From Thraustochytrium aureum (Eukaryota), in assembly GCA_012862495.1 (NCBI GenBank), contig BLSG01000180.1, positions 1 through 58,759 of the forward strand: 58,759 bases of DNA, read 5' to 3'. Below are positions 209 to 35,604 of this stretch, piece after piece (position 1 is the stretch's first letter; the number at the start of each line of letters is the position of its first letter). Made by a program: the position numbers and the translations under genes. The notes under the pieces are model-generated. The model did not search any database. It was given only the letters and a program-made list of their open reading frames with translations, and was not told the origin of the DNA.

Positions 209-3200
209 TCAGTCTCGCCCTTTACTCGACGTGCGGCGCTTCTTCAGTGGCTTTGTTTTGGACGTCTCCTCCGAAGACTCTCGTTTGTAGCTTTTCGTCT
301 TGCCGCTTGGTGAACCAGAGCCCACTTCCTGTCCCGAACGAAGATCCTGCGCCGGGTGCGTAGGTCTCGTCGAGGCGTCGGGTGACACCGGTGAGCGCGC
401 GTTGGCTTCGACAAGGATCAGTTTCGAGGGCACTGGCTCGACCACCTGCGCTTCGTGGCTGAAGTTGAGTTTGAGGCCTGTACGGTGCGTCAGCGTAATG
501 CTATCCTGACCCTCGACCAACTCGTCAAAGTCCTTCGCATCTTCACAGCGCAGTACTAGGAGCAGCGTGGAGATGTGCTCTGGCAAATGAAGCGAGACTG
601 CGTTAAAAGCGGGATTTGAAGAACTCTCCAGCACGCAGACTGGAACTGGGGGTTTTCCAGGGAGCCGAGGGACGCTGCGCCGAACTTGTTCTCGCACCTC
701 CGTGGCCCACTGAAAACCTGGCCCTTCAGAGTAATAGTCATGCAAGCGTTTTGAAATCGGCTCAACCAACTCAAGTCCGCCACAAGCACGCCCAAAGTAC
801 GTGAGCGCCTCCTCCATGCGATCAAAGCGGGCTGTCGCCTTGGCTGTGCGCGAAGCGCTACCCAGCTTCAAGTCCTTCTTGTGGTGGAAAAAGCGGTTCA
901 TCTTGAGGCACACCAGCCCAGCCTCATCCACGAGATGGTTGAACTCGATGTCCTCCCAAAACGTTTTGGTTGGGTAGAACGCCCCGGCGTCCACCGTCTG
1001 TTTCACATGAAGATACACGAACGAGTGAACAGAGGCGGAAACCGTGAACGGGAGGTCGGGCTCCGCGCACGCTTGAGCGTTTCGGCGAACGCCAATCAGC
1101 CCGTACTGGTTCGCACCGCCTGTCAGTTCTGCTTTCGTCGTGGCAACAGCTTCACTCGTCCAAGACAGTTGGGCACGGCGCAGCCGGGGAAGATCGCTTG
1201 GGCACGCCATGCGTTGCTCCTCGCGCAGAGTCTCAAGAGCAGCATCGTCGTCATCTACGACACTCTCAACCCCAGACATCACGGTGGCGAATGTGCACGC
1301 CTCAGGAGCCTCGGCCTGCGCTTCACCTGGCGCGCCGTCACTGACCAGTCGTCGCTGGTAGCAAACGTCCACATTGTCGTCCAAAACCCAAACCCAGCGC
1401 AGGCCAAGCTCGTATGCAGCTAGTTGCACGAAAAGCCGCGCGTACCCGATTCCACCGCGAGCTGCATGCACCAGCTTATCCTTGCCTGGAGGCGCGAACG
1501 AAGACGGCATACCGAGAATGAGGTAGGCAGAACCATAGGCCGCGACGTAGTCCTCAAACTGCTTGCCGCTTCGAACGACAATGCAGACGACCGTTGCTTT
1601 GTCTGCGCTAGTCTCAGGGATTGCCTTCTCGTAGTCAAGGAGAGCAACACCAGCGCGGCAGTACGAGGGCACGAAGCACCACCGAACAGACCCCACACCC
1701 TCGCACCCGCACACCTTGCGCTGGGCGAGGTCGACCTCCAGCAATGAAACCAGGGACCGCTCGCCGGTAGAGATTTTGCCGCTGAGCTGCTGCGACTGTG
1801 CGTTTAGGCTCACTCGGACGAGGTCCCCGTCTGCGCCGACCGAAAGCCCGTGAAATCCGTTGTACGGCGCCGAGAGACAAACACCGTCGCCTACCAAGTG
1901 AACCTGGCGCACAATGTACTGCTTGGCAAAGTACGACGCGTCGAAGCTCGACGAGGTCGGTCGAGCTGCAACACTTGCGTAGTCTGCGCGGTGCGACGCA
2001 GAGAGCGAAACCGAGACGATGCTCGCGTCATAGGAGCTCAAGCCCATCGACGTCGTCGCAGAGGCGCCATCAGGGGCGCCAGAATCCCAGACCGAGCGCT
2101 GAACAAAAGACAGGAGGGAGCGCACGCGTTGGGTGAAAGTGAGTGGTAAACGCCTATTGGCCGCCGAGTACGACGATCGCGCCGTTTCCAGATCGCGACG
2201 AGCCGTGGTATCACGGAAGAAGTTTTCGAGCGTTTCACGCCACGCACCCGACAAGCGGCCATCAAAGTTGATGCATTTCCTTACCCTGTCCGGATCTTGA
2301 CACGTTGCGCCAACCAACGGCGGGTCAGTGGTCTCACTGTTCTGCAGATCCCTCTCGAGCGACTTAATCTTGTCTCTGCCAGCCTCACTCTGAATCGCCT
2401 CGCCGTCCGCCGACCGAAGATAAGTGAGGAATCGTTTCTTCCAGTCAGTGCCCCTTTCACTGGCGAGGAAAAGGGCAAGGAGTCGCTGTCGAAAGGCCGT
2501 ACGATGTGCCTGGCTCGGGCCCACTTTGTCATACAATCCACGCAGCGCAGGAAACCGGGCGATTCGGTGGTTACAACAAGGTTCCGCCAGTACGGAAGCG
2601 ACCAAGTGTCACGCGGCACCAGAGGCAGCCTTTCGGGAGGCGCTGGAATTGACACCTCGATGGCGTCTTTGAGCAGGCGGATGAAGTGCAAGTAAGTCCC
2701 CGTCTTGCCCTGCTGACACTGCGCCATGAGCAAGAGGCGGCGCGGGTCCGTCTCGGACGACTCGCGGTCATCGTAATGTGGTGAACGGCTTTTGCTCCCG
2801 CTCCCACTTTCATCACTGCACGTGGGGCGCTGCTGGCGATAAGCACTCAAGTCGTGCAGCGGATTTGTCACGACCACCTCTCCGATGGACGTCCGCTCAG
2901 CAGAGGGCTTCGCAGCCTTCTTTCCCTGGCCACGACCTGACACGTAGAGGTCTATCGGGCCGGGAATGCACTGGTCGACGCGCCGACGGCCCCAGGCGTC
3001 TCGGTACTTGTGCTCAACAGCCTTTTGCACTTGCGCATTGAAGCGCGCAGCGTTCATCAACACCGTGGGAAGAATATGCAGGTAGCGCTTCGCGGTCCAC
3101 GTCCCAAAACGAGCTCTGGGCACGGTAGAAGGCGGCTTCAGCAGTTCCTCGCGCAGTCGCGACCTCAGTTGCAGCTCAGAGTCAAAGTGGAACCGCACCT

Positions 3201-6200
3201 CGTTTCCTGGATCAAGCACCGCGTAGCTCCCACCCTTGGCAAGGAAGGCCCTCGCACTCCTGTCAGCGCAGAATTGCGACAGCTGCTGCTCGAGCTCAGT
3301 GTCGTTCCAGTCTCCAGCGCCCGGATTCTGCGTGTCGACTTCGGCGCGCCTCGTCACTTCAAAGTTTGCGAATGTCGCCTCATCTTCGTTGAGACCAGGG
3401 TAGCGGCAAACTCGTCCGAACTCCTGCACAAATGTTGAATACGTCGGCGAGGAACGCAGGCGAATGTCCAGGAAACGAAACGAGTGCGGGAAAGTGTCGC
3501 CCATGCGCCCCTTCTCGCAGAGGATCACGATCGTTGGCAAGTTTTCTAGGTCCTCGTACTTGGCAGTCATCTGCACGGGCTTCGGCTCGCGGTTCGCTTC
3601 ACGTGCATATCGTTCCTCGCAGGCCTTCGCTTCAGCCAACGATTGATTAACACGGTCCACAAGAGTCTCTTTCGTGCCGGTACCTCGGTTCTGCTTCGAT
3701 GGATGCCTCAGGTCACGTTCAAGCGCCCACGGCTCCAGTTGAGAGAAGAGGTTGGTTGCCCGCCGCATTGCTCTGGCGCTCCTAGTAGGGCTGCTGCANN
3801 NNNNNNNNNNNNNNNNNNNNNNNNNNNNNNNNNNNNNNNNNNNNNNNNNNNNNNNNNNNNNNNNNNNNNNNNNNNNNNNNNNNNNNNNNNNNNNNNNNNN
3901 NNNNNNNNNNNNNNNNNNNNNNNNNNNNNNNNNNNNNNNNNNNNNNNNNNNNNNNNNNNNNNNNNNNNNNNNNNNNNNTCGGCAACGACGCTCAGCACAC
4001 CGCCGTTGACTTTCATTCGAGAGGCCGAGCTTTTTGAGGGCGCTGCGGAGGCCGTCCTGAATGGACAGGTTTTCGTCCGTCTCATAGACACGGATTACAG
4101 CCATCCGCCCCGTGCGGAAGCGGGGGTGTACGTCCAACAGGTCGTGCAGGAGGCGATCGGTCTCGTTGTACCAAGCCTCTATGGTATTCGCCTGATTTTC
4201 TGTGAGATCCTCGCGATTGCATGCAAGCTTCTCCGAGATAACGTACTCCAAGCACATGCGACAGCGGTCGGGGGACATAGCATTGCTATTTTCTTGCAAG
4301 CCCTCCAACTTTTTCACCCACTTTTCGCCGAGTCTCGCACACAGCGCACGTTTTCACCGAGCGCGACTCAAGCTCGTCCCAGGCTGCAACAAGCGTGGCC
4401 TTGAGTAGCTCGTTAAGTACGTGCTGAACCTCGGCCCTCTCGACACCGCCGCCGATGCTAAACGTGCCGACCTGCAGATCTGGCTGGGGTTCGAGTTGCG
4501 GCCACAGCAGGTGTGCAATGTCGAGGTGGAGTGTGAATTTTTGAAGGAGGGCCTCATTGAGAGCAAGCTGACCAACGTCAGCTAGCTCCAGCGGTCGAAA
4601 GATAGTCTCGCGTTCTGTTTCACAGTCCCAGAGGCGCTCGTGGTCAACGCGGTAGACTGCCAAGTACGTGAGCGAGAGAAGGTACTCGGCCATGATGATG
4701 TGGCCGTCGAAGAGAGGCGTCGACTTTGCAACTTTGATGCGATCCGCTCTGCGATTCTTGCTCGTCCGCTTCCCGAAGACGCGCTCAATGCGAGCACGGA
4801 CAGCGTCGAAAGAGTCGTCCCGAACAACCCTCTGCCGTCGACGCGGCAGGCAATCTGCTCCCACGTCTTGTTCCGTATCACACAAGAGTGGGATCCCCCT
4901 CGCGCGCACAGAGTAGGACTTCTTTCGCCCATCGCGCTGGACCTCGCTCCACGCCGCCTCAATCGCACGTTCTTCCGTTGCAAATCCGAGCCAGTGCATC
5001 AACCCACGCTCAGCTTTGAACGCACTCTCGCAGATGCGCACTTCGCCTGGGAGGGTCAGTGTCACCTTCTCCCTCTTGACGTTGAAGAAGCTTCCAGTTT
5101 TGCCAGCTCTTTCAACAACCCCAGCTGGGATCGCGTCTCGCACGGCTTTGTCAAGGACTTGGCAGAAAGCCGAAAAGTCATGCATTGGGTAGCGGAATCT
5201 GCACCCATGGAGTCCTTGGGGGTCCACCTCGACGATGGTTTCGGCACTGCCGCGAGCCTTCACGGCGAGTTGCAACGGCCCGACACACGCTGGTACAGCC
5301 CACGTTGCACTTTCCACAAAGTAGTCCATGCTGCGATAGAGAGAGGTCTCGTTGTGCCATGCGACCACGTTCGCTTCATCGATGCGGGACTTGCTTGTCA
5401 GCACATTCTGTGGAGTCGCCGAGACCAGTAGTCGGAGGACGTTTCCACCCTTTAGCCTCTTATTGTTGAGAAACCAGTCGTGCGCCCCACGCTTTGTCGG
5501 TGCGTAGTGGCACTCGTCCGCGATGATGACCAAGAGCGTTTTTGGATCCGAGGCTTGACTCTCCATCCATTTCCGATGATCGCTCATCACTACGCGGGGG
5601 ACTTTGGTGTGCTTGAGAACGCGACCGCCGTCCAATTTTGCCCGCATGACGCGATCTTCCGTCTGCGTCTGGAGAGAGTTGAAGTTCGGAGTAAGAATGA
5701 CAAAGGCCACACTCGAAAATCGCGCAGCCCATGCCGCCTTCTGCGAACCGAAGAGAGCTGTCTCGGCGATTTGAAATATTTGTTTTGCAACCTCGCGCTG
5801 TTCTGGATGCGCAACGTCCGGTTGGTCCGAGACGGTAAACGCCTCGCCTGTGGTCTCGCGCCTGCCGTCGACGTTAGCAACGGTAACGACAACGCAGAGC
5901 ATGACTTCCTTCTCCTCATTGGAGAGTTTGTCGTCTCTTTCCGCGTCGCGCGACATCGTGACGCTCGCGCCCGGCCCCTCTTGGGCCGTCCGGCCAAAGT
6001 TTGGCAGTCCGCGGGAAAGCTGCTCCCATGCCTTGCTCTTGCACGCCTGCGCAGCAGCGTCATCAGCCTTTGTGAGCAGCTCATTGGCCAGTGTTTCGCG
6101 TTCGCCTTGGTCTTCGGGAAGTGGCGGCATGACTAGCTCAAGTGTTCCTTCTTGCTCATTTCCCTCTCCCAAGCCACGCGTCACATACAGAACTTGTATG

Positions 6201-6381
6201 GGGCGATCCTCCGCTTGCAACTCAGTCTCGTCTTCTGCCTCTTCCGCAAAGTTGGCATCGTCCTGGCTGGCGAGGCTTTTTTCGAGCAACTGTCGAACGA
6301 AGTCGGCTTCATCGGACGCCACTGCCAGCAGCACACTTGCAACGCCCTCGCCATCAGGGTTGAGAATCACGACTATGCGGT
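209..6381 (-). CDS. GREB1-like protein: circularly permuted SF2 helicase fused to a C-terminal TAGT (JGT-like) glycosyltransferase; 5' end lost in a gap, two apparent frameshifts
   Basis: Three overlapping minus ORFs (4286..6370, 2281..4317, 209..2605) read as one protein. Motifs in N-to-C order: Ia-like ILTPNFNSLQTQT, motif II IIADECHY (~5507-5518), motif III LVSATP (~5415), motif V ILCEKGRMGDTFP (~3500), motif VI QEFGRVCRY (~3401-3427), Walker A LLMAQCQQGKTG (GKT 2701-2709), then GT-A-type motifs GGIGYARLF (~1445), WVLDDNV (~1380) and WEDIEFN (~950). Confidence 0.8.
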
Positions 6382-7091
6382 NNNNNNNNNNNNNNNNNNN
6401 NNNNNNNNNNNNNNNNNNNNNNNNNNNNNNNNNNNNNNNNNNNNNNNNNNNNNNNNNNNNNNNNNNNNNNNNNNNNNNNNNNNNNNNNNNNNNNNNNNNN
6501 NNNNNNNNNNNNNNNNNNNNNNNNNNNNNNNNNNNNNNNNNNNNNNNNNNNNNNNNNNNNNNNNNNNNNNNNNNNNNNNNNNNNNNNNNNNNNNNNNNNN
6601 NNNNNNNNNNNNNNNNNNNNNNNNNNNNNNNNNNNNNNNNNNNNNNNNNNNNNNNNNNNNNNNNNNNNNNNNNNNNNNNNNNNNNNNNNNNNNNNNNNNN
6701 NNNNNNNNNNNNNNNNNNNNNNNNNNNNNNNNNNNNNNNNNNNNNNNNNNNNNNNNNNNNNNNNNNNNNNNNNNNNNNNNNNNNNNNNNNNNNNNNNNNN
6801 NNNNNNNNNNNNNNNNNNNNNNNNNNNNNNNNNNNNNNNNNNNNNNNNNNNNNNNNNNNNNNNNNNNNNNNNNNNNNNNNNNNNNNNNNNNNNNNNNNNN
6901 NNNNNNNNNNNNNNNNNNNNNNNNNNNNNNNNNNNNNNNNNNNNNNNNNNNNNNNNNNNNNNNNNNNNNNNNNNNNNNNNNNNNNNNNNNNNNNNNNNNN
7001 NNNNNNNNNNNNNNNNNNNNNNNNNNNNNNNNNNNNNNNNNNNNNNNNNNNNNNNNNNNNNNNNNNNNNNNNNNNNNNNNNNNNNNNNNNN

Positions 7092-8253
7092 NGAAGGCCT
7101 TGGCGATCGGACTCGGACTCGGAGGGCTCTTCAAGTTGGTCTTGCTTGTTTTTCTTGAATCAAGATGTTGTTTTTCAAGATGAAATCGCCTCGCCTTCTC
7201 TGGATTTGTTTCGTGCGCGGGGATACCACCTATCCGTTGCGTTGCTCTTGTGCGTTTGTGTGTGTGTCGCGCAACGCTCAGAAGGACAAAACACCTCTCC
7301 TGAAGTTTTAACCTTTTTGATGAAACTCTCATCTATCATCCTCACGGAAAAAGTGCGTGGCTCGAAATGCTCCTCGGAAGCCGAGGGCCTCGGCTATTCC
7401 GGGAAAATATCGATCCGTCATCGCAACGTGGAGCAGCTCTCCGGCGCGATTGGCTTGGAGGACCTCCATCGAATTGAGAACAAGATCGCGAAGACTTCAC
7501 GCGCCAGCCATGCCGTTTAGCAGCTTCACGAGATGCCCCATCCGCATTTGAGGCCTGCTTGGGCACTCCAGAACCATATGCATGGCCACGTTCCAAATCT
7601 TGCAAGGACCGCAAACGTCCTGCAAAACCTGCCCCGGACATCCAAGCTGTCAAGTTCAGCTCCAGCCTGAGTAACGCGTGCTTGAGGGTCCCAGGAGCAT
7701 GTGCCTTGTCCGCAGCGCCACTTTACTTCATCGCACGAGACATGGATAGGCTGCTACCAGCGCCCAATTGAAATGCAGGCTGCAACGAAGCGGCGAGCAG
7801 GTGCTCTACTAGGCAAGGACTTGGATTGACCAGGTCCCGGAAGGCTCGTCCCAGAATCGCTCGAACTGACTTGCGAGGCCCGCGGTCTTCATGAGCTGGG
7901 CAGGGCTGGGCATGACTGGGTCCACGTGCTGCATCGTTGGAGGCACGGCGCCGTGAAACGTGCTGAGCACAGCGGCTCGTGGCAGCCCCACTTGCTCCTC
8001 GTACGCCTGCGAGTATAATCCCGCGACGGGGTCCATCGTTGCAGAGGGGCCTGCCTCGACGCCGACGATAGGTGCGCGGTTGGCGTGCTCGGCGAGCAGC
8101 CCCACAAGTCCGCCGGGCGGGCGCAGCGCGGCGGCGGTTGCCCATGAGCCGACGCTGCCTTGCGCCACCCGCACCTCGGCAGCAGGCACCCGCAAGCAAA
8201 CGCCGCGGCCAGCCCGCTGCGCATCTCGCAACAGCCTGGACTTTCGAAGTGTG
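7092..8253 (-). other. Fragmented coding-like sequence, possibly the N-terminal part of the GREB1-like gene or a separate degraded gene
   Basis: Same strand as the GREB1-like gene and flanked by gaps. Protein-like stretches (7809..8231; MEVLQANRAGELLHVAMTDRYFPGIAEALGFRG near 7350-7470) are broken by stops and frame changes. No recognisable domain. Confidence 0.3.
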
Positions 8254-32445: not shown

Positions 32446-34270
32446 AGCAGCCCCTGGCCCTCGCTGGCGGCACTGCGGCCCTTTGCCGCGCCGCGCATGG
32501 CCGCTCTAGCCCTGCTGCCGGCACGTCAAGCATAGCGTAACAAAACATTGGACAGTCAAAGCCGTGCCTTCCGCCGCGCAACCCTCGCACCCGTAGCCGC
32601 CTTGTGCGTTGCACTCTCGCTGTTGATCTTGATCGAAAGCAGCGCGCTCTGCCGATCGACCTGCTTTCCCGCGCGCGCTGCGCGTTCCGGGCCGCGACGC
32701 CAGCCCGATGAGAATCGGCACCGTCACGGCGGCGCGCGCCACGAGGGCTTTCTTGCAAAACCCCAAGCCAAACCCCCCCATCCGGCGCGACATCGCACGG
32801 CAACGCGGCACGAGAGGCAGCGGGAGCGGCTCTGAGCGCGACGCGCGAGCCCTACTCGGGTGCTGTGCGAGGCGCCTTTTCAAGATGGGCGGAGAGGCGC
32901 GCAAGCGACCGAGGGAGGTGCAGGATGCTCGAAATGTGGCAGACCACCACGACGACCGGCCAAGCGCAAGGCAAAGGNNNNNNNNNNNNNNNNNNNNNNN
33001 NNNNNNNNNNNNNNNNNNNNNNNNNNNNNNNNNNNNNNNNNNNNNNNNNNNNNNNNNNNNNNNNNNNNNNNNNNNNNNNNNNNNNNNNNNNNNNNNNNNN
33101 NNNNNNNNNNNNNNNNNNNNNNNNNNNNNNNNNNNNNNNNNNNNNNNNNNNNNNNNNNNNNNNNNNNNNNNNNNNNNNNNNNNNNNNNNNNNNNNNNNNN
33201 NNNNNNNNNNNNNNNNNNNNNNNNNNNNNNNNNNNNNNNNNNNNNNNNNNNNNNNNNNNNNNNNNNNNNNNNNNNNNNNNNNNNNNNNNNNNNNNNNNNN
33301 NNNNNNNNNNNNNNNNNNNNNNNNNNNNNNNNNNNNNNNNNNNNNNNNNNNNNNNNNNNNNNNNNNNNNNNNNNNNNNNNNNNNNNNNNNNNNNNNNNNN
33401 NNNNNNNNNNNNNNNNNNNNNNNNNNNNNNNNNNNNNNNNNNNNNNNNNNNNNNNNNNNNNNNNNNNNNNNNNNNNNNNNNNNNNNNNNNNNNNNNNNNN
33501 NNNNNNNNNNNNNNNNNNNNNNNNNNNNNNNNNNNNNNNNNNNNNNNNNNNNNNNNNNNNNNNNNNNNNNNNNNNNNNNNNNNNNNNNNNNNNNNNNNNN
33601 NNNNNNNNNNNNNNNNNNNNNNNNNNNNNNNNNNNNNNNNNNNNNNNNNNNNNNNNNNNNNNNNNNNNNNNNNNNNNNNNNNNNNNNNNNNNNNNNNNNN
33701 NNNNNNNNNNNNNNNNNNNNNNNNNNNNNNNNNNNNNNNNNNNNNNNNGGCCTTCATCGGGGCATCCCTGCACGCCGCAGGAGCCGCGCGCCCAGGCGAC
33801 GCCCGGCCGGCCGCGTAGAAACCGGAATCACTAAGCAAACCATCCAAGATAGCAAAGGCATCAACAGCTGTCTGGCGTGAGTTGGCCACGGGACGTCCGC
33901 GACGAGCTTGCTTGTTGGCTGACGACCGCCCCCAGATCGAAATCGTTGCAGCGACCAAACAACCCCGTGGCGAAACAGACGAGCGAACAGTGCCGGCCGA
34001 TGCCTGCGACTCGGGCTGCGCGCCCAGGAGGTCGGCGAGCGGCCGCCTCGCGTTGTTTCGCCGAAACCCCCGACCGCCTGCCTGCCTGCTGCCCTGAGGA
34101 GACAGCCATTCCTCGAAGGCGACCAGGCAGGGCGCAGCCTCTCGCGACGGCTGGCTGGCGCCGCTGCGGCCTTGGTCGTCGCTTGCGACCTTGGGCCTTC
34201 GCGCTGTCGCACGCGCTGACGCCTCGCCTCCACGGTTGCTGGCTGGCGCGGCGCGGGCTCCGCTGCGGCC

Positions 34271-35604
34271 ATGGCTACGCAGCTCGCCACGCAGCGGCGC
34301 GGCGCAAAGACCGCGGGCGAGGACGGTGGTGCCGAAGGGCCAGTGGAGCGACCAGGCGGTGGCGCGCCGAAGGCGCCTGTGAAGGCGCCTGTTGAGCGCG
34401 CGGCGAAAGGGAAGCGAAACCCGAACGAGACCAAGCTGCAAAGGTTTGTTGGCGCCGCCGTTGCGCTGCTGACGCGACACGCAGGCAAGTTCGGGACGCT
34501 GTTGTTCCTTCTCGGCCTCGTCTGGGTCTGCCTGTTCCCGCTGGTGTGCATCACGACCGGGGAGCTCAAGTGCCGAGGCACCTACTTCTCGGAGAATGCG
34601 CTGTCGCCAATGTCGGGCGAGAGCGGCTTTCGAGCCTCCACCATTGCGCAAGCAGAGCTTGCTGACAGCGCGTTGGCGGCCGCGCAGTCTGCGGCAGCGC
34701 GCAAGGCTGTGAGCGCCAACCTGCTGCGCTCGGCCGGCCTCGATGCGCAGGTCCACGACCAAACCGGCGCCGTGTACGGGGTGCTGTGGCCTCTTGGCGG
34801 CGCGGACCGGCGCGAGGCCGTGATCGTCGTGGCGCGGCTCAAAGCTGTCCGGGGAGGCGAGACGTGCTGCTCTGAGGCGGGAGCCGCAATCGCCTTGGCG
34901 CGCGTCCTGAGGGAGAGCGAGTGGCTGAGCAAGAACGTAATCGTGCTGCTCGCGTCCTCGGGGGCCGAGGTGCGCGACTGGGTGGCCCACTACCACTCCA
35001 GCGACGCCCGGTTTGCCAACATGACGCGCGCAGGCGGCATCATCGGGGGCGTCGTGCTGGACTTTGGCGTGCCTGCAAGCAAGCCAGTGGCCGGCTTGGG
35101 CGTTCTTTCTCAAGGGACAAACGGCCAGCTGCCCAATCTGGACCTCGTCAACGTAGCCGTGATGGTTGCGCAACGCCAGTCGGCCCCTGTGCTTCTTTCG
35201 AGGAGCAGCTCGCAGGGCAGCGTCCGCGGGGGCTCAACCGGATCCTAGCGAGCGCCGCGCCGCACATGGATCGCGGGGCGCAGGCCGCAGCGCAGACCTG
35301 GGCTTTGCGGATGGACCGGATGGGTCAGTTCCTCCGCGGGGCTGCGTTCGGGCCGACGGGCTGGCACTCGCACCTACTCCCGTACGACATTCACGCGATT
35401 ACGCTCGCCATGGTCGAGCCCGGCGATTTGCTGCCGCACGGCGCAACAGGCAAGTCCCGTCGCGAGCTGGTCGAGGTGGCGGCGCGCTCGACGGAGCACG
35501 TCGTGCGCAGCCTGAGCAACCTCGAGGAGAGGTTTCACCAGTCGTACTTTTTGTACATTTTGCCTGATATTGGGCTTTTTGTCTCGATCGGCGAGTTTTC
35601 GGGC
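34271..35604 (+). CDS. GPAA1: GPI transamidase subunit Gaa1 (frameshift near 35230; 3' end in gap)
   Basis: TYFSENALSP, WLSKNVIVL, GTNGQLPNLDLVN and RSLSNLEERFHQSYFLYILP...FVSIG. Confidence 0.92.

What the first reader, a model, noticed from the sequence alone, without database searches (positions are those of the whole stretch)
2701..5700. Circular permutation of the SF2 helicase with apparently intact catalytic motifs
The Walker A (AQCQQGKTG, ~2701-2725) lies about 230 aa C-terminal to motif VI, while Ia, II (DECH), III (SAT), V and VI precede it in normal order with large insertions. GKT, DExH, SAT and QxxGRxxR are all intact, so this permuted helicase is probably an active ATPase and a tractable model for the GREB1 helicase module.
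Basis: partly seen in the sequence, partly recalled or inferred. Interest (0 to 1): 0.7.

Follow-up and report, generated by a model that had tools for sequence, protein, structure and literature searches.

The report
Protist GREB1-type helicase with relocated P-loop
This is a protist gene of the already catalogued GREB1 family, in which a helicase-like motor with its ATP-binding loop moved to the far end is fused to a sugar-transferring domain; its motor residues are intact, as in most relatives, so it is likely an active ATPase, and the three reading-frame breaks in this assembly are probably sequencing errors.

Summary
Real but known. The minus-strand gene (about 6380 to 209) is a GREB1-like protein: Pfam cpSF2-GREB1, the 'circularly permuted SF2 helicase', followed by a TAGT glycosyltransferase. 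Its nearest named relatives are Hondaea paralogues (69-73%). The Walker A lies 227-234 residues after motif VI. The same order holds in 96 of 96 full-span relatives, and all four motifs are intact in 89 of 96. The two most decayed are deuterostome GREB1L-type proteins. A complex model docks the C-terminal strand, P-loop and helix into RecA domain 1 (0.84, best control 0.00). The window breaks the gene at three one-base indels, which public contigs and a homologue lack. A Q-motif-like helix stays at the N-terminal end (Gln in 108 of 111), so only strand-P-loop-helix moved, which is not a plain one-cut circular permutation. It is likely an ATP-driven nucleic-acid motor serving the glycosyltransferase; activity and substrate are untested. 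The scan noted this family before on other DNA.

The parts
209..6379 (-). GREB1-like gene, about 2,010 residues from 6379 to the stop. About 120 more N-terminal residues are probably hidden in the N run 6382-7092, so the start codon was not located. No intron seen.
   Evidence: Pfam; Hondaea P0023 aligns colinearly from its residue 122 in four blocks; contigs of X1-X4 show no joints
5786..5809 (-). Q-motif-like helix start HPEQREVA (Gln at 5798-5800), 37 residues before the Pro of motif Ia
   Evidence: Gln in 108 of 111 homologues; spacing 30-63, median 36; start of the structural alignment puts it on HsdR Gln276 if ungapped
5660..5698 (-). Motif Ia
5507..5518 (-). Motif II / Walker B, DECH
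   Evidence: DExH/D in 91 of 96 full-span homologues
5414..5422 (-). Motif III, SAT; the strand before it is predicted to pair with the relocated strand
4350..4354 (-). Frame break 1: one extra base at a run of four A
   Evidence: left out in X1, X2 and X4, the 3 of 4 runs that cover it; P0023 changes frame here
4010..4013 (-). Frame break 2: one extra base at a run of three A
   Evidence: left out in X1, X2 and X4; P0023 comparison
3799..3978 (.). Run of 180 N inside the gene; X1 and X2 contigs bridge it with 43 letters, so it behaves as an over-sized assembly gap
   Evidence: record coordinates (X1 record 1301 = window 3796, record 1353 = window 3985; X2 has the same offset)
3487..3510 (-). 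Motif V, GRMGDTFP
3403..3426 (-). Motif VI, QEFGRVCR, with both arginines
   Evidence: QxxGR in 92 of 96, last Arg in 75 of 96
2656..2742 (-). Relocated element: strand RRLLL, Walker A AQCQQGKTG (2698-2724) and the following helix
   Evidence: QxGKT in 96 of 96; complex model 0.84 against best control 0.00
2554..2556 (-). Frame break 3: one base missing
   Evidence: put in by X1, X2 and X3 (3 of 4 runs); the 8-letter loose end of X4 agrees; P0023 comparison
857..1711 (-). TAGT glycosyltransferase domain, GT-A fold, with DDN (1373-1381) and WED (950-958)
   Evidence: PF20691 46.6 bits against cut-off 27.5; DD in 84 of 84 and ED in 67 of 75 homologues; model matches GT-A enzymes, best Z 13.7, rmsd 3.5, 182 aligned

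Best explanation
The gene encodes a GREB1-family protein of a protist, an SF2 helicase-like motor with its Walker A placed after motif VI and a TAGT glycosyltransferase behind it, which is likely an active ATPase that probably moves along nucleic acid and brings the glycosyltransferase to its target. Shown: family, motif order, intact motifs, and an open frame in public contigs. Predicted: the C-terminal strand-P-loop-helix folds back into RecA domain 1, beside the motif III strand, against the DECH strand and the N-terminal Q-like helix, rebuilding a normal ATP site. Inferred from SF2 biochemistry: Gln reads the adenine, GKT holds the phosphates, DECH binds Mg and activates water, and the motif VI arginines close the site so that the two RecA domains step along a duplex without unwinding it. 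Inferred and weakest: the TAGT domain sugars a base in DNA or RNA reached in this way. My odds are 0.97 for the family, 0.85 that the gene is intact in the species, 0.8 for an active ATPase, and about 0.45 for a nucleic-acid acceptor.
For: Pfam PF20692 and PF20691 above cut-off. Order II<III<V<VI<A in 96 of 96 full-span homologues; four motifs intact in 89 of 96 across lineages about 35-45% identical to the window protein, which argues for selection on catalysis. Complex model of the window's own pieces with ATP and Mg: 0.84 against best control 0.00, runs agree in at least 71% of contacts, partner pLDDT at least 54. The mark was reached by 51 of 78 solved and 2 of 108 mismatched pairs. In the model, residues 354-357 pair with the motif III strand 316-318, and the Asp of DECH is in the interface. 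AlphaFold model of homologue P0055: pTM 0.71, relocated strand and helix at pLDDT 92-96. Best structural neighbours are HsdR of EcoR124I (Z 9.9, rmsd 5.5, 334 aligned), Dicer/RIG-I helicases, RadD and Snf2 motors. HsdR translocates duplex DNA without unwinding (PMC4454674 passages). A Gly-to-Gln Walker A works in the CglI DEAD-Z1 dsDNA translocase (PMC5861437 passages). The frame breaks are absent from contigs of two studies and from P0023. None of 74 variants scored makes a stop.
Against: No ATPase, translocation or glycosylation was measured, and phmmer/hmmsearch found no solved family member. The complex pass joins two halves of one domain, so it may reflect likeness to solved SF2 folds; pLDDT is only 54-64 and ATP contacts were not reported. 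The top structural Z values are tied within 1 and only middling, so they do not fix the substrate. The one tested family member, human GREB1, was reported to O-GlcNAcylate a protein in the cytoplasm (PMC7968844 passages). The 89 of 96 count is biased, because the profile came from intact members and only the best 150 of 1,392 hits were listed. Variants are 51 non-synonymous to 23 synonymous (pN/pS 0.71, inflated by likely window errors) and GC3 is 0.65-0.69 against 0.78-0.90 in 8 neighbouring gene segments, so constraint may be weak. Hondaea paralogue P0002 has DDCH and no TAGT match, so copies in this clade do decay.
Confidence: 0.65

Rival explanations
1. The motor is an ATP-gated clamp or switch rather than a processive translocase, and the glycosyltransferase modifies proteins, as reported for human GREB1.
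For: Human GREB1 was reported to O-GlcNAcylate ER-alpha (PMC7968844 passages). Structural neighbours include RIG-I/Dicer-type sensors, and the GT-A hits include protein glycosyltransferases. No TET/JBP Pfam match was seen among 116 of the 163 other window ORF segments scanned.
Against: TAGT is described as related to DNA-base glycosyltransferases. The intact motor is kept next to TAGT in many lineages, and vertebrate GREB1, the protein-glycosylating case, is the one described as helicase-dead.
Confidence: 0.22
2. In the strain behind this window the gene is a fresh pseudogene: the three one-base indels are real and cut the protein before motifs V, VI and the Walker A.
For: Three breaks in 6 kb; high pN/pS and low GC3; partial and degenerate paralogues in Hondaea.
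Against: Every run that covers a break lacks it. The breaks sit at short single-base runs. X4 differs from the window by 0-2 letters per contig except around 3989-4801, which holds 11 substitutions and 2 of the indels. The window has 20 N runs, and a Gaa1 housekeeping gene also changes frame.
Confidence: 0.1
3. The motifs are relics of a dead motor that only binds nucleic acid, as is said of vertebrate GREB1.
For: GREB1's helicase is called inactive in print; the Walker A has Gln where SF2 usually has Gly (PMC5861437 passage).
Against: The decayed state is seen in stickleback greb1l and Saccoglossus (DNSH/DQAH, no SAT, no QxxGR), not here. The Gln is invariant in 127 of 127 rows and has a working precedent in CglI.
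Confidence: 0.03

Closest known systems
Protist GREB1-like proteins (Pfam PF20692 cpSF2-GREB1 + PF20691 TAGT), nearest Hondaea fermentalgiana P0023, P0024, P0002, P0027
   Same: Domain order, motif order, the same AQCQQGKTG Walker A, 69-73% identity over the helicase core, one clade with support 1.0
   Different: A further member; no second copy in this window; three indels in this assembly; host lineage not established
Animal GREB1/GREB1L (stickleback greb1l P0147, Saccoglossus P0167)
   Same: cpSF2 followed by TAGT, a relocated QxGKT, and the DD pair of TAGT
   Different: The animal proteins lost DExH, SAT and QxxGR and carry GREB1_N, GREB1_2nd and GREB1_C domains that the three window ORFs do not match; they lie in another clade
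HsdR motor of type I restriction enzyme EcoR124I
   Same: Two-RecA SF2 fold, best structural neighbour of the homologue model (Z 9.9); Gln, GKT, DE and two Arg are available for ATP
   Different: Canonical motif order, a nuclease instead of a glycosyltransferase, 14-15% identity; tied within 1 Z with other SF2 families
DEAD-Z1 motor of CglI
   Same: Walker A with Gln for Gly; an active dsDNA translocase (PMC5861437 passages)
   Different: Not permuted, shorter motif VI spacing; no Z1 Pfam match was listed for 15 members scanned, so kinship is a lead only

Membership tests
GREB1-like (cpSF2-GREB1 + TAGT) | PF20692 match above the curated cut-off | tested here: met
   162.2 and 201.9 bits against 26.2
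GREB1-like (cpSF2-GREB1 + TAGT) | Walker A after motif VI, none before motif Ia | tested here: met
   about 120 N-terminal residues are hidden by N, but the slot between Q and Ia is fully visible
GREB1-like (cpSF2-GREB1 + TAGT) | C-terminal TAGT domain in the same polypeptide, with acidic catalytic pairs | tested here: met
   PF20691 above cut-off; frame joined in X1-X3; DD and ED kept; GT-A fold
Animal GREB1/GREB1L subfamily | GREB1_N, GREB1_2nd and GREB1_C domains, and a decayed helicase | tested here: not met
   absent from the three window ORFs, present in P0147 and P0167; the hidden N-terminal part was not testable
SF2 helicase-like ATPase | Motifs Q, I, Ia, II, III, V and VI present | tested here: met
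   the Q assignment rests on pattern and alignment register; motif IV was not assigned
SF2 helicase-like ATPase | P-loop strand completes RecA domain 1 | tested here: met
   prediction only: 0.84 against best control 0.00; pLDDT 92-96 in the homologue model
SF2 helicase-like ATPase | Nucleic-acid-stimulated ATP hydrolysis, translocation or unwinding | not testable with these tools
   needs purified protein
Strict one-cut circular permutation | Everything N-terminal of the cut (Q motif and Walker A) moves together | tested here: not met
   a Q-like helix precedes Ia at the N-terminal end while Walker A is C-terminal; this holds if the Q assignment is right
DEAD-Z1 motors | Z1 domain and H/H motif | tested here: inconclusive
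   no Z1 family listed in Pfam scans; no profile-profile comparison was run

The most novel reading that the evidence does not exclude
Ancestral GREB1 is an ATP-driven nucleic-acid glycosylation machine: a restriction-type translocase whose P-loop was moved by duplication and selective loss (Q motif from the first copy, Walker A from the second), feeding a base glycosyltransferase. Protists keep it active, here in a fast-evolving, multi-copy clade consistent with antiviral defence. Animals kept the ATP-binding half, lost hydrolysis and turned the enzyme onto proteins.
Probability: 0.25. Interest if true: 0.7.

Novelty: new member of a known kind. Interest (0 to 1): 0.3.

Why it matters
GREB1 and GREB1L matter in hormone-driven cancer and development, and the papers read here call their helicase inactive. 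The data show that this is a derived state: most relatives examined keep a complete, predicted-competent ATP site, so the module can be assayed. An active motor with a nucleic-acid acceptor would point to an unrecognised eukaryotic DNA or RNA glycosylation route. The split of Q motif and Walker A to opposite ends is a tidy case of fold rearrangement. This locus itself adds little beyond the 1,392 representatives already in public data.

Tried and rejected
Introns or programmed frameshifting at the three breaks: rejected, because contigs show single-base indels and no joints. A CxxC..CxxC zinc ribbon across break 1: rejected, because the first pair is out of frame once the extra base is allowed for and all four runs read Trp in place of one Cys of the second pair. 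Expression: no RNA holder is on record and X1-X3 are only guessed to be RNA, so nothing is concluded. No whole genome is held, so copy number and TET/JBP partners were not tested. Viral or mobile origin: no relative in viral contigs, metagenome contigs or phage records; two weak plasmid matches (E 5e-4 and 0.4) were not followed up; BFVD gave only distant SF2 hits. These searches reach close relatives only, so the phage versions noted are neither confirmed nor excluded. Host lineage from a neighbouring malic enzyme: one unnamed hit, unresolved. A leftover Walker A between Q and Ia: GK[TS] in 3 of 115 rows against 2.6 expected, with no strand before it. No solved relative by sequence. The Atlas held neither query. 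Iyer et al. 2013, the source of the permutation claim, is not held, so I cannot say whether it already notes active protist members or the Q-motif position. Searches for GREB1-like + stramenopile and thraustochytrid + GREB1 found 0 papers; searches listed none whose title or abstract start concerns protist GREB1 enzymology. The alignment figure in the PMC7968844 supplement is a picture and could not be seen.
Full report
What is there. The window is eukaryotic DNA with ordinary housekeeping genes and 20 runs of N. The finding lies in a minus-strand gene that the window shows as three overlapping ORFs: 4286-6370, 2281-4317 and 209-2605. The first two match Pfam PF20692, 'circularly permuted SF2 helicase found in GREB1 proteins' (E 2.8e-47, profile 2-268; E 2.7e-59, best stretch profile 346-703 of 716). 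The third matches PF20691 TAGT (46.6 bits, cut-off 27.5). Residue numbers below refer to W1 (6379 to 4352), W2 (3798 to 2557) and W3 (2551 to 212).

Observation. DECH is at 5507-5518, SAT at 5414-5422, GRMGDTFP at 3487-3510, QEFGRVCR at 3403-3426 and AQCQQGKTG at 2698-2724. Motif VI and the Walker A are 227-234 residues apart in one frame.

The breaks it missed. Contigs of five public runs were laid on the gene in two calls. X1, X2 and X4 lack one base at 4350/4351 and one at 4011; X5 covers neither site. X1, X2 and X3 have one more base at 2554/2555, and an 8-letter loose end of X4 agrees. X1 and X2 bridge the 180-N run with 43 letters (record coordinates). Together these give one open frame of about 2,010 residues from 6379 to the stop. 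No joints were seen. The Hondaea homologue P0023 switches frame at the same three places and aligns from its residue 122, so about 120 N-terminal residues are probably hidden in 6382-7092. The breaks lie at short single-base runs, and a Gaa1 gene in the window also changes frame. Assembly error is the simplest reading. Limits: the four informative runs come from two studies, X4 may be the window's own source, and contigs drop rare alleles. The RNA label of X1-X3 is a guess, so nothing is claimed about expression.

Family. The nearest named proteins are Hondaea fermentalgiana GREB1-like paralogues: 69-73% identical over the core, one clade with support 1.0 in a 97-row FastTree tree; the next relatives are at most 44% identical. 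A profile search found 1,392 representatives at E up to 0.001, of which 150 were listed. Of 166 homologues held, 96 span motifs II, III, V, VI and A. All 96 have that order, all 96 have QxGKT, and 89 keep all four tested motifs. The other 70 did not span all five motifs and were left out. The count leans to intact members because the profile was built from them. The two most decayed are stickleback greb1l and a Saccoglossus GREB1-like protein, which keep GKT but lose DExH, SAT and QxxGR. Salpingoeca and Capsaspora members, intact, fall in the large clade (support 0.995) that holds those two; the nodes joining them directly are weaker, 0.86 and 0.45.

Does the P-loop fold back? W1 180-400 and W2 330-414 were folded as two chains with ATP and Mg. 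The score was 0.84, best of 3 controls 0.00; runs agree in at least 71% of contacts; partner pLDDT was at least 54. The mark was reached by 51 of 78 solved and 2 of 108 mismatched pairs. W2 354-357, the strand before the P-loop, pairs with W1 316-318, the strand before SAT. The helix after GKT packs on the strands leading to Ia and DECH and on the N-terminal helix 198-205, and Asp288 of DECH is in the interface. That this is the canonical slot of strand 1 in an SF2 RecA domain is my recalled knowledge. The pass may come from likeness to solved SF2 folds, since these are two halves of one domain. An AlphaFold model of homologue P0055 (101 rows) had pTM 0.71, with the relocated strand and helix at pLDDT 92-96. 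It matches SF2 motors, best HsdR of EcoR124I (Z 9.9, rmsd 5.5, 334 aligned), tied with Dicer/RIG-I, RadD and Snf2 types. The sequential alignments mostly stop at 795-825, just before the Walker A at 829.

A refinement. The helix where the Pfam match begins, HPEQREVA (5786-5809), follows (Y/H/F)PxQxxVA with Gln in 108 of 111 homologues, 30-63 residues (median 36) before Ia. Two structural alignments start with model residue 154 on HsdR 271, which, if ungapped, puts this Gln (159 in P0055) on Gln276, an ATP contact of HsdR (PMC4454674 passages). The name 'Q motif' for it is recalled. The order is then Q, Ia, II, III, V, VI, I: only strand-P-loop-helix moved. A single cut cannot give that; tandem duplication with loss of the first Walker A could (inference). 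Repeated helicase units occur in the family (P0024, P0027, P0034). GK[TS] between Q and Ia occurs in 3 of 115 rows, about what chance gives (2.6). The Gln in place of the first Walker A Gly has a working precedent in the CglI DEAD-Z1 dsDNA translocase (PMC5861437 passages); kinship was not shown.

Glycosyltransferase. W3 keeps DD (84 of 84 homologues) and ED (67 of 75). Its model (pTM 0.61) has a GT-A domain at 281-565 (best Z 13.7, rmsd 3.5, 182 aligned). The GT-dead mutant of human GREB1 included an adjacent Asp pair, D1645/D1646 (PMC7968844 passages); equating it with the DD here is my inference.

Mechanism. Most likely an ATP-driven motor that tracks nucleic acid and positions the glycosyltransferase (0.65 overall; ATPase 0.8; nucleic-acid acceptor about 0.45). 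The second RecA domain's two arginine fingers are described in PMC10853773 (passage), and both are present. The main rival is a clamp with a protein acceptor, as for human GREB1. Against strong constraint: 74 variant rows scored (all 36 and 38 of the 40 shown; 23 rows were not shown) gave 51 non-synonymous, 23 synonymous and 0 stops, and GC3 is 0.65-0.69 against 0.78-0.90 in 8 neighbouring gene segments. This fits either fast evolution or relaxation, and includes likely window errors.

Literature and novelty. PMC7968844 (passages; supplement text) and PMC6163654 (passages) describe GREB1's circularly permuted, catalytically inactive SF2 helicase and TAGT, citing Iyer et al. 2013, which is not held and which I did not read. 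Searches for protist GREB1 found 0 papers. Earlier notes of this scan report the same family in two protist fragments and two phages; I tested the family-norm claim myself and could not confirm the phage cases. Verdict: a new member of a known kind. Interest 0.3, earned by the testable active state and the Q/Walker A split, not by the permutation.

Noticed in passing
window 34220-35604 (+): A Gaa1 (GPI transamidase) gene changes frame near 35200-35250: probably another assembly indel, though a 20-base GT..AG stretch lies there.
   Followed up: partly
window 4261-4634: Seven substitutions and one indel are shared by runs of both studies against the window, while X4 is nearly identical elsewhere: a locally poor or different haplotype segment.
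   Followed up: partly
window 2346-2526 and 106-345: X1 and X2 hold two versions of these stretches, one matching the window closely: two alleles or strains, or a very recent copy.
   Followed up: no
proteins P0001, P0002, P0023, P0024, P0027, P0094, P0123: Hondaea has at least seven GREB1-like entries, some partial, some with duplicated helicase units, one with DDCH and no TAGT: a lineage expansion.
   Followed up: partly
proteins P0147, P0167: The animal GREB1L-type proteins keep the Q-like Gln and QxGKT while losing motifs II, III and VI, so they may still bind nucleotide.
   Followed up: no
proteins P0075, P0108, P0113: GK[TS] at the same spot about 20 residues after the Q-like Gln; at chance level and without a strand, but where an ancestral Walker A would lie.
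   Followed up: partly
proteins P0157, P0046, P0034, P0008, P0013: Variant fusions of the permuted helicase: a methyltransferase and no TAGT match (P0157), WD40 repeats, four or five helicase repeats (Planoprotostelium), PF00505 (HMG box by its source name) and PF12796 (ankyrin, name recalled).
   Followed up: no
window 14302-58758: Other genes: ribulose-phosphate epimerase, glutaredoxin, Mog1, adaptin medium chain, DUF1295, Myb, response regulator, malic enzyme, and weak SWIM and 7tm_3 matches; 116 of 163 ORF segments scanned.
   Followed up: no
window 440-780 (-): A poorly predicted mixed alpha/beta segment after TAGT (about W3 580-700), also aligned in Hondaea P0023, has no Pfam match.
   Followed up: no
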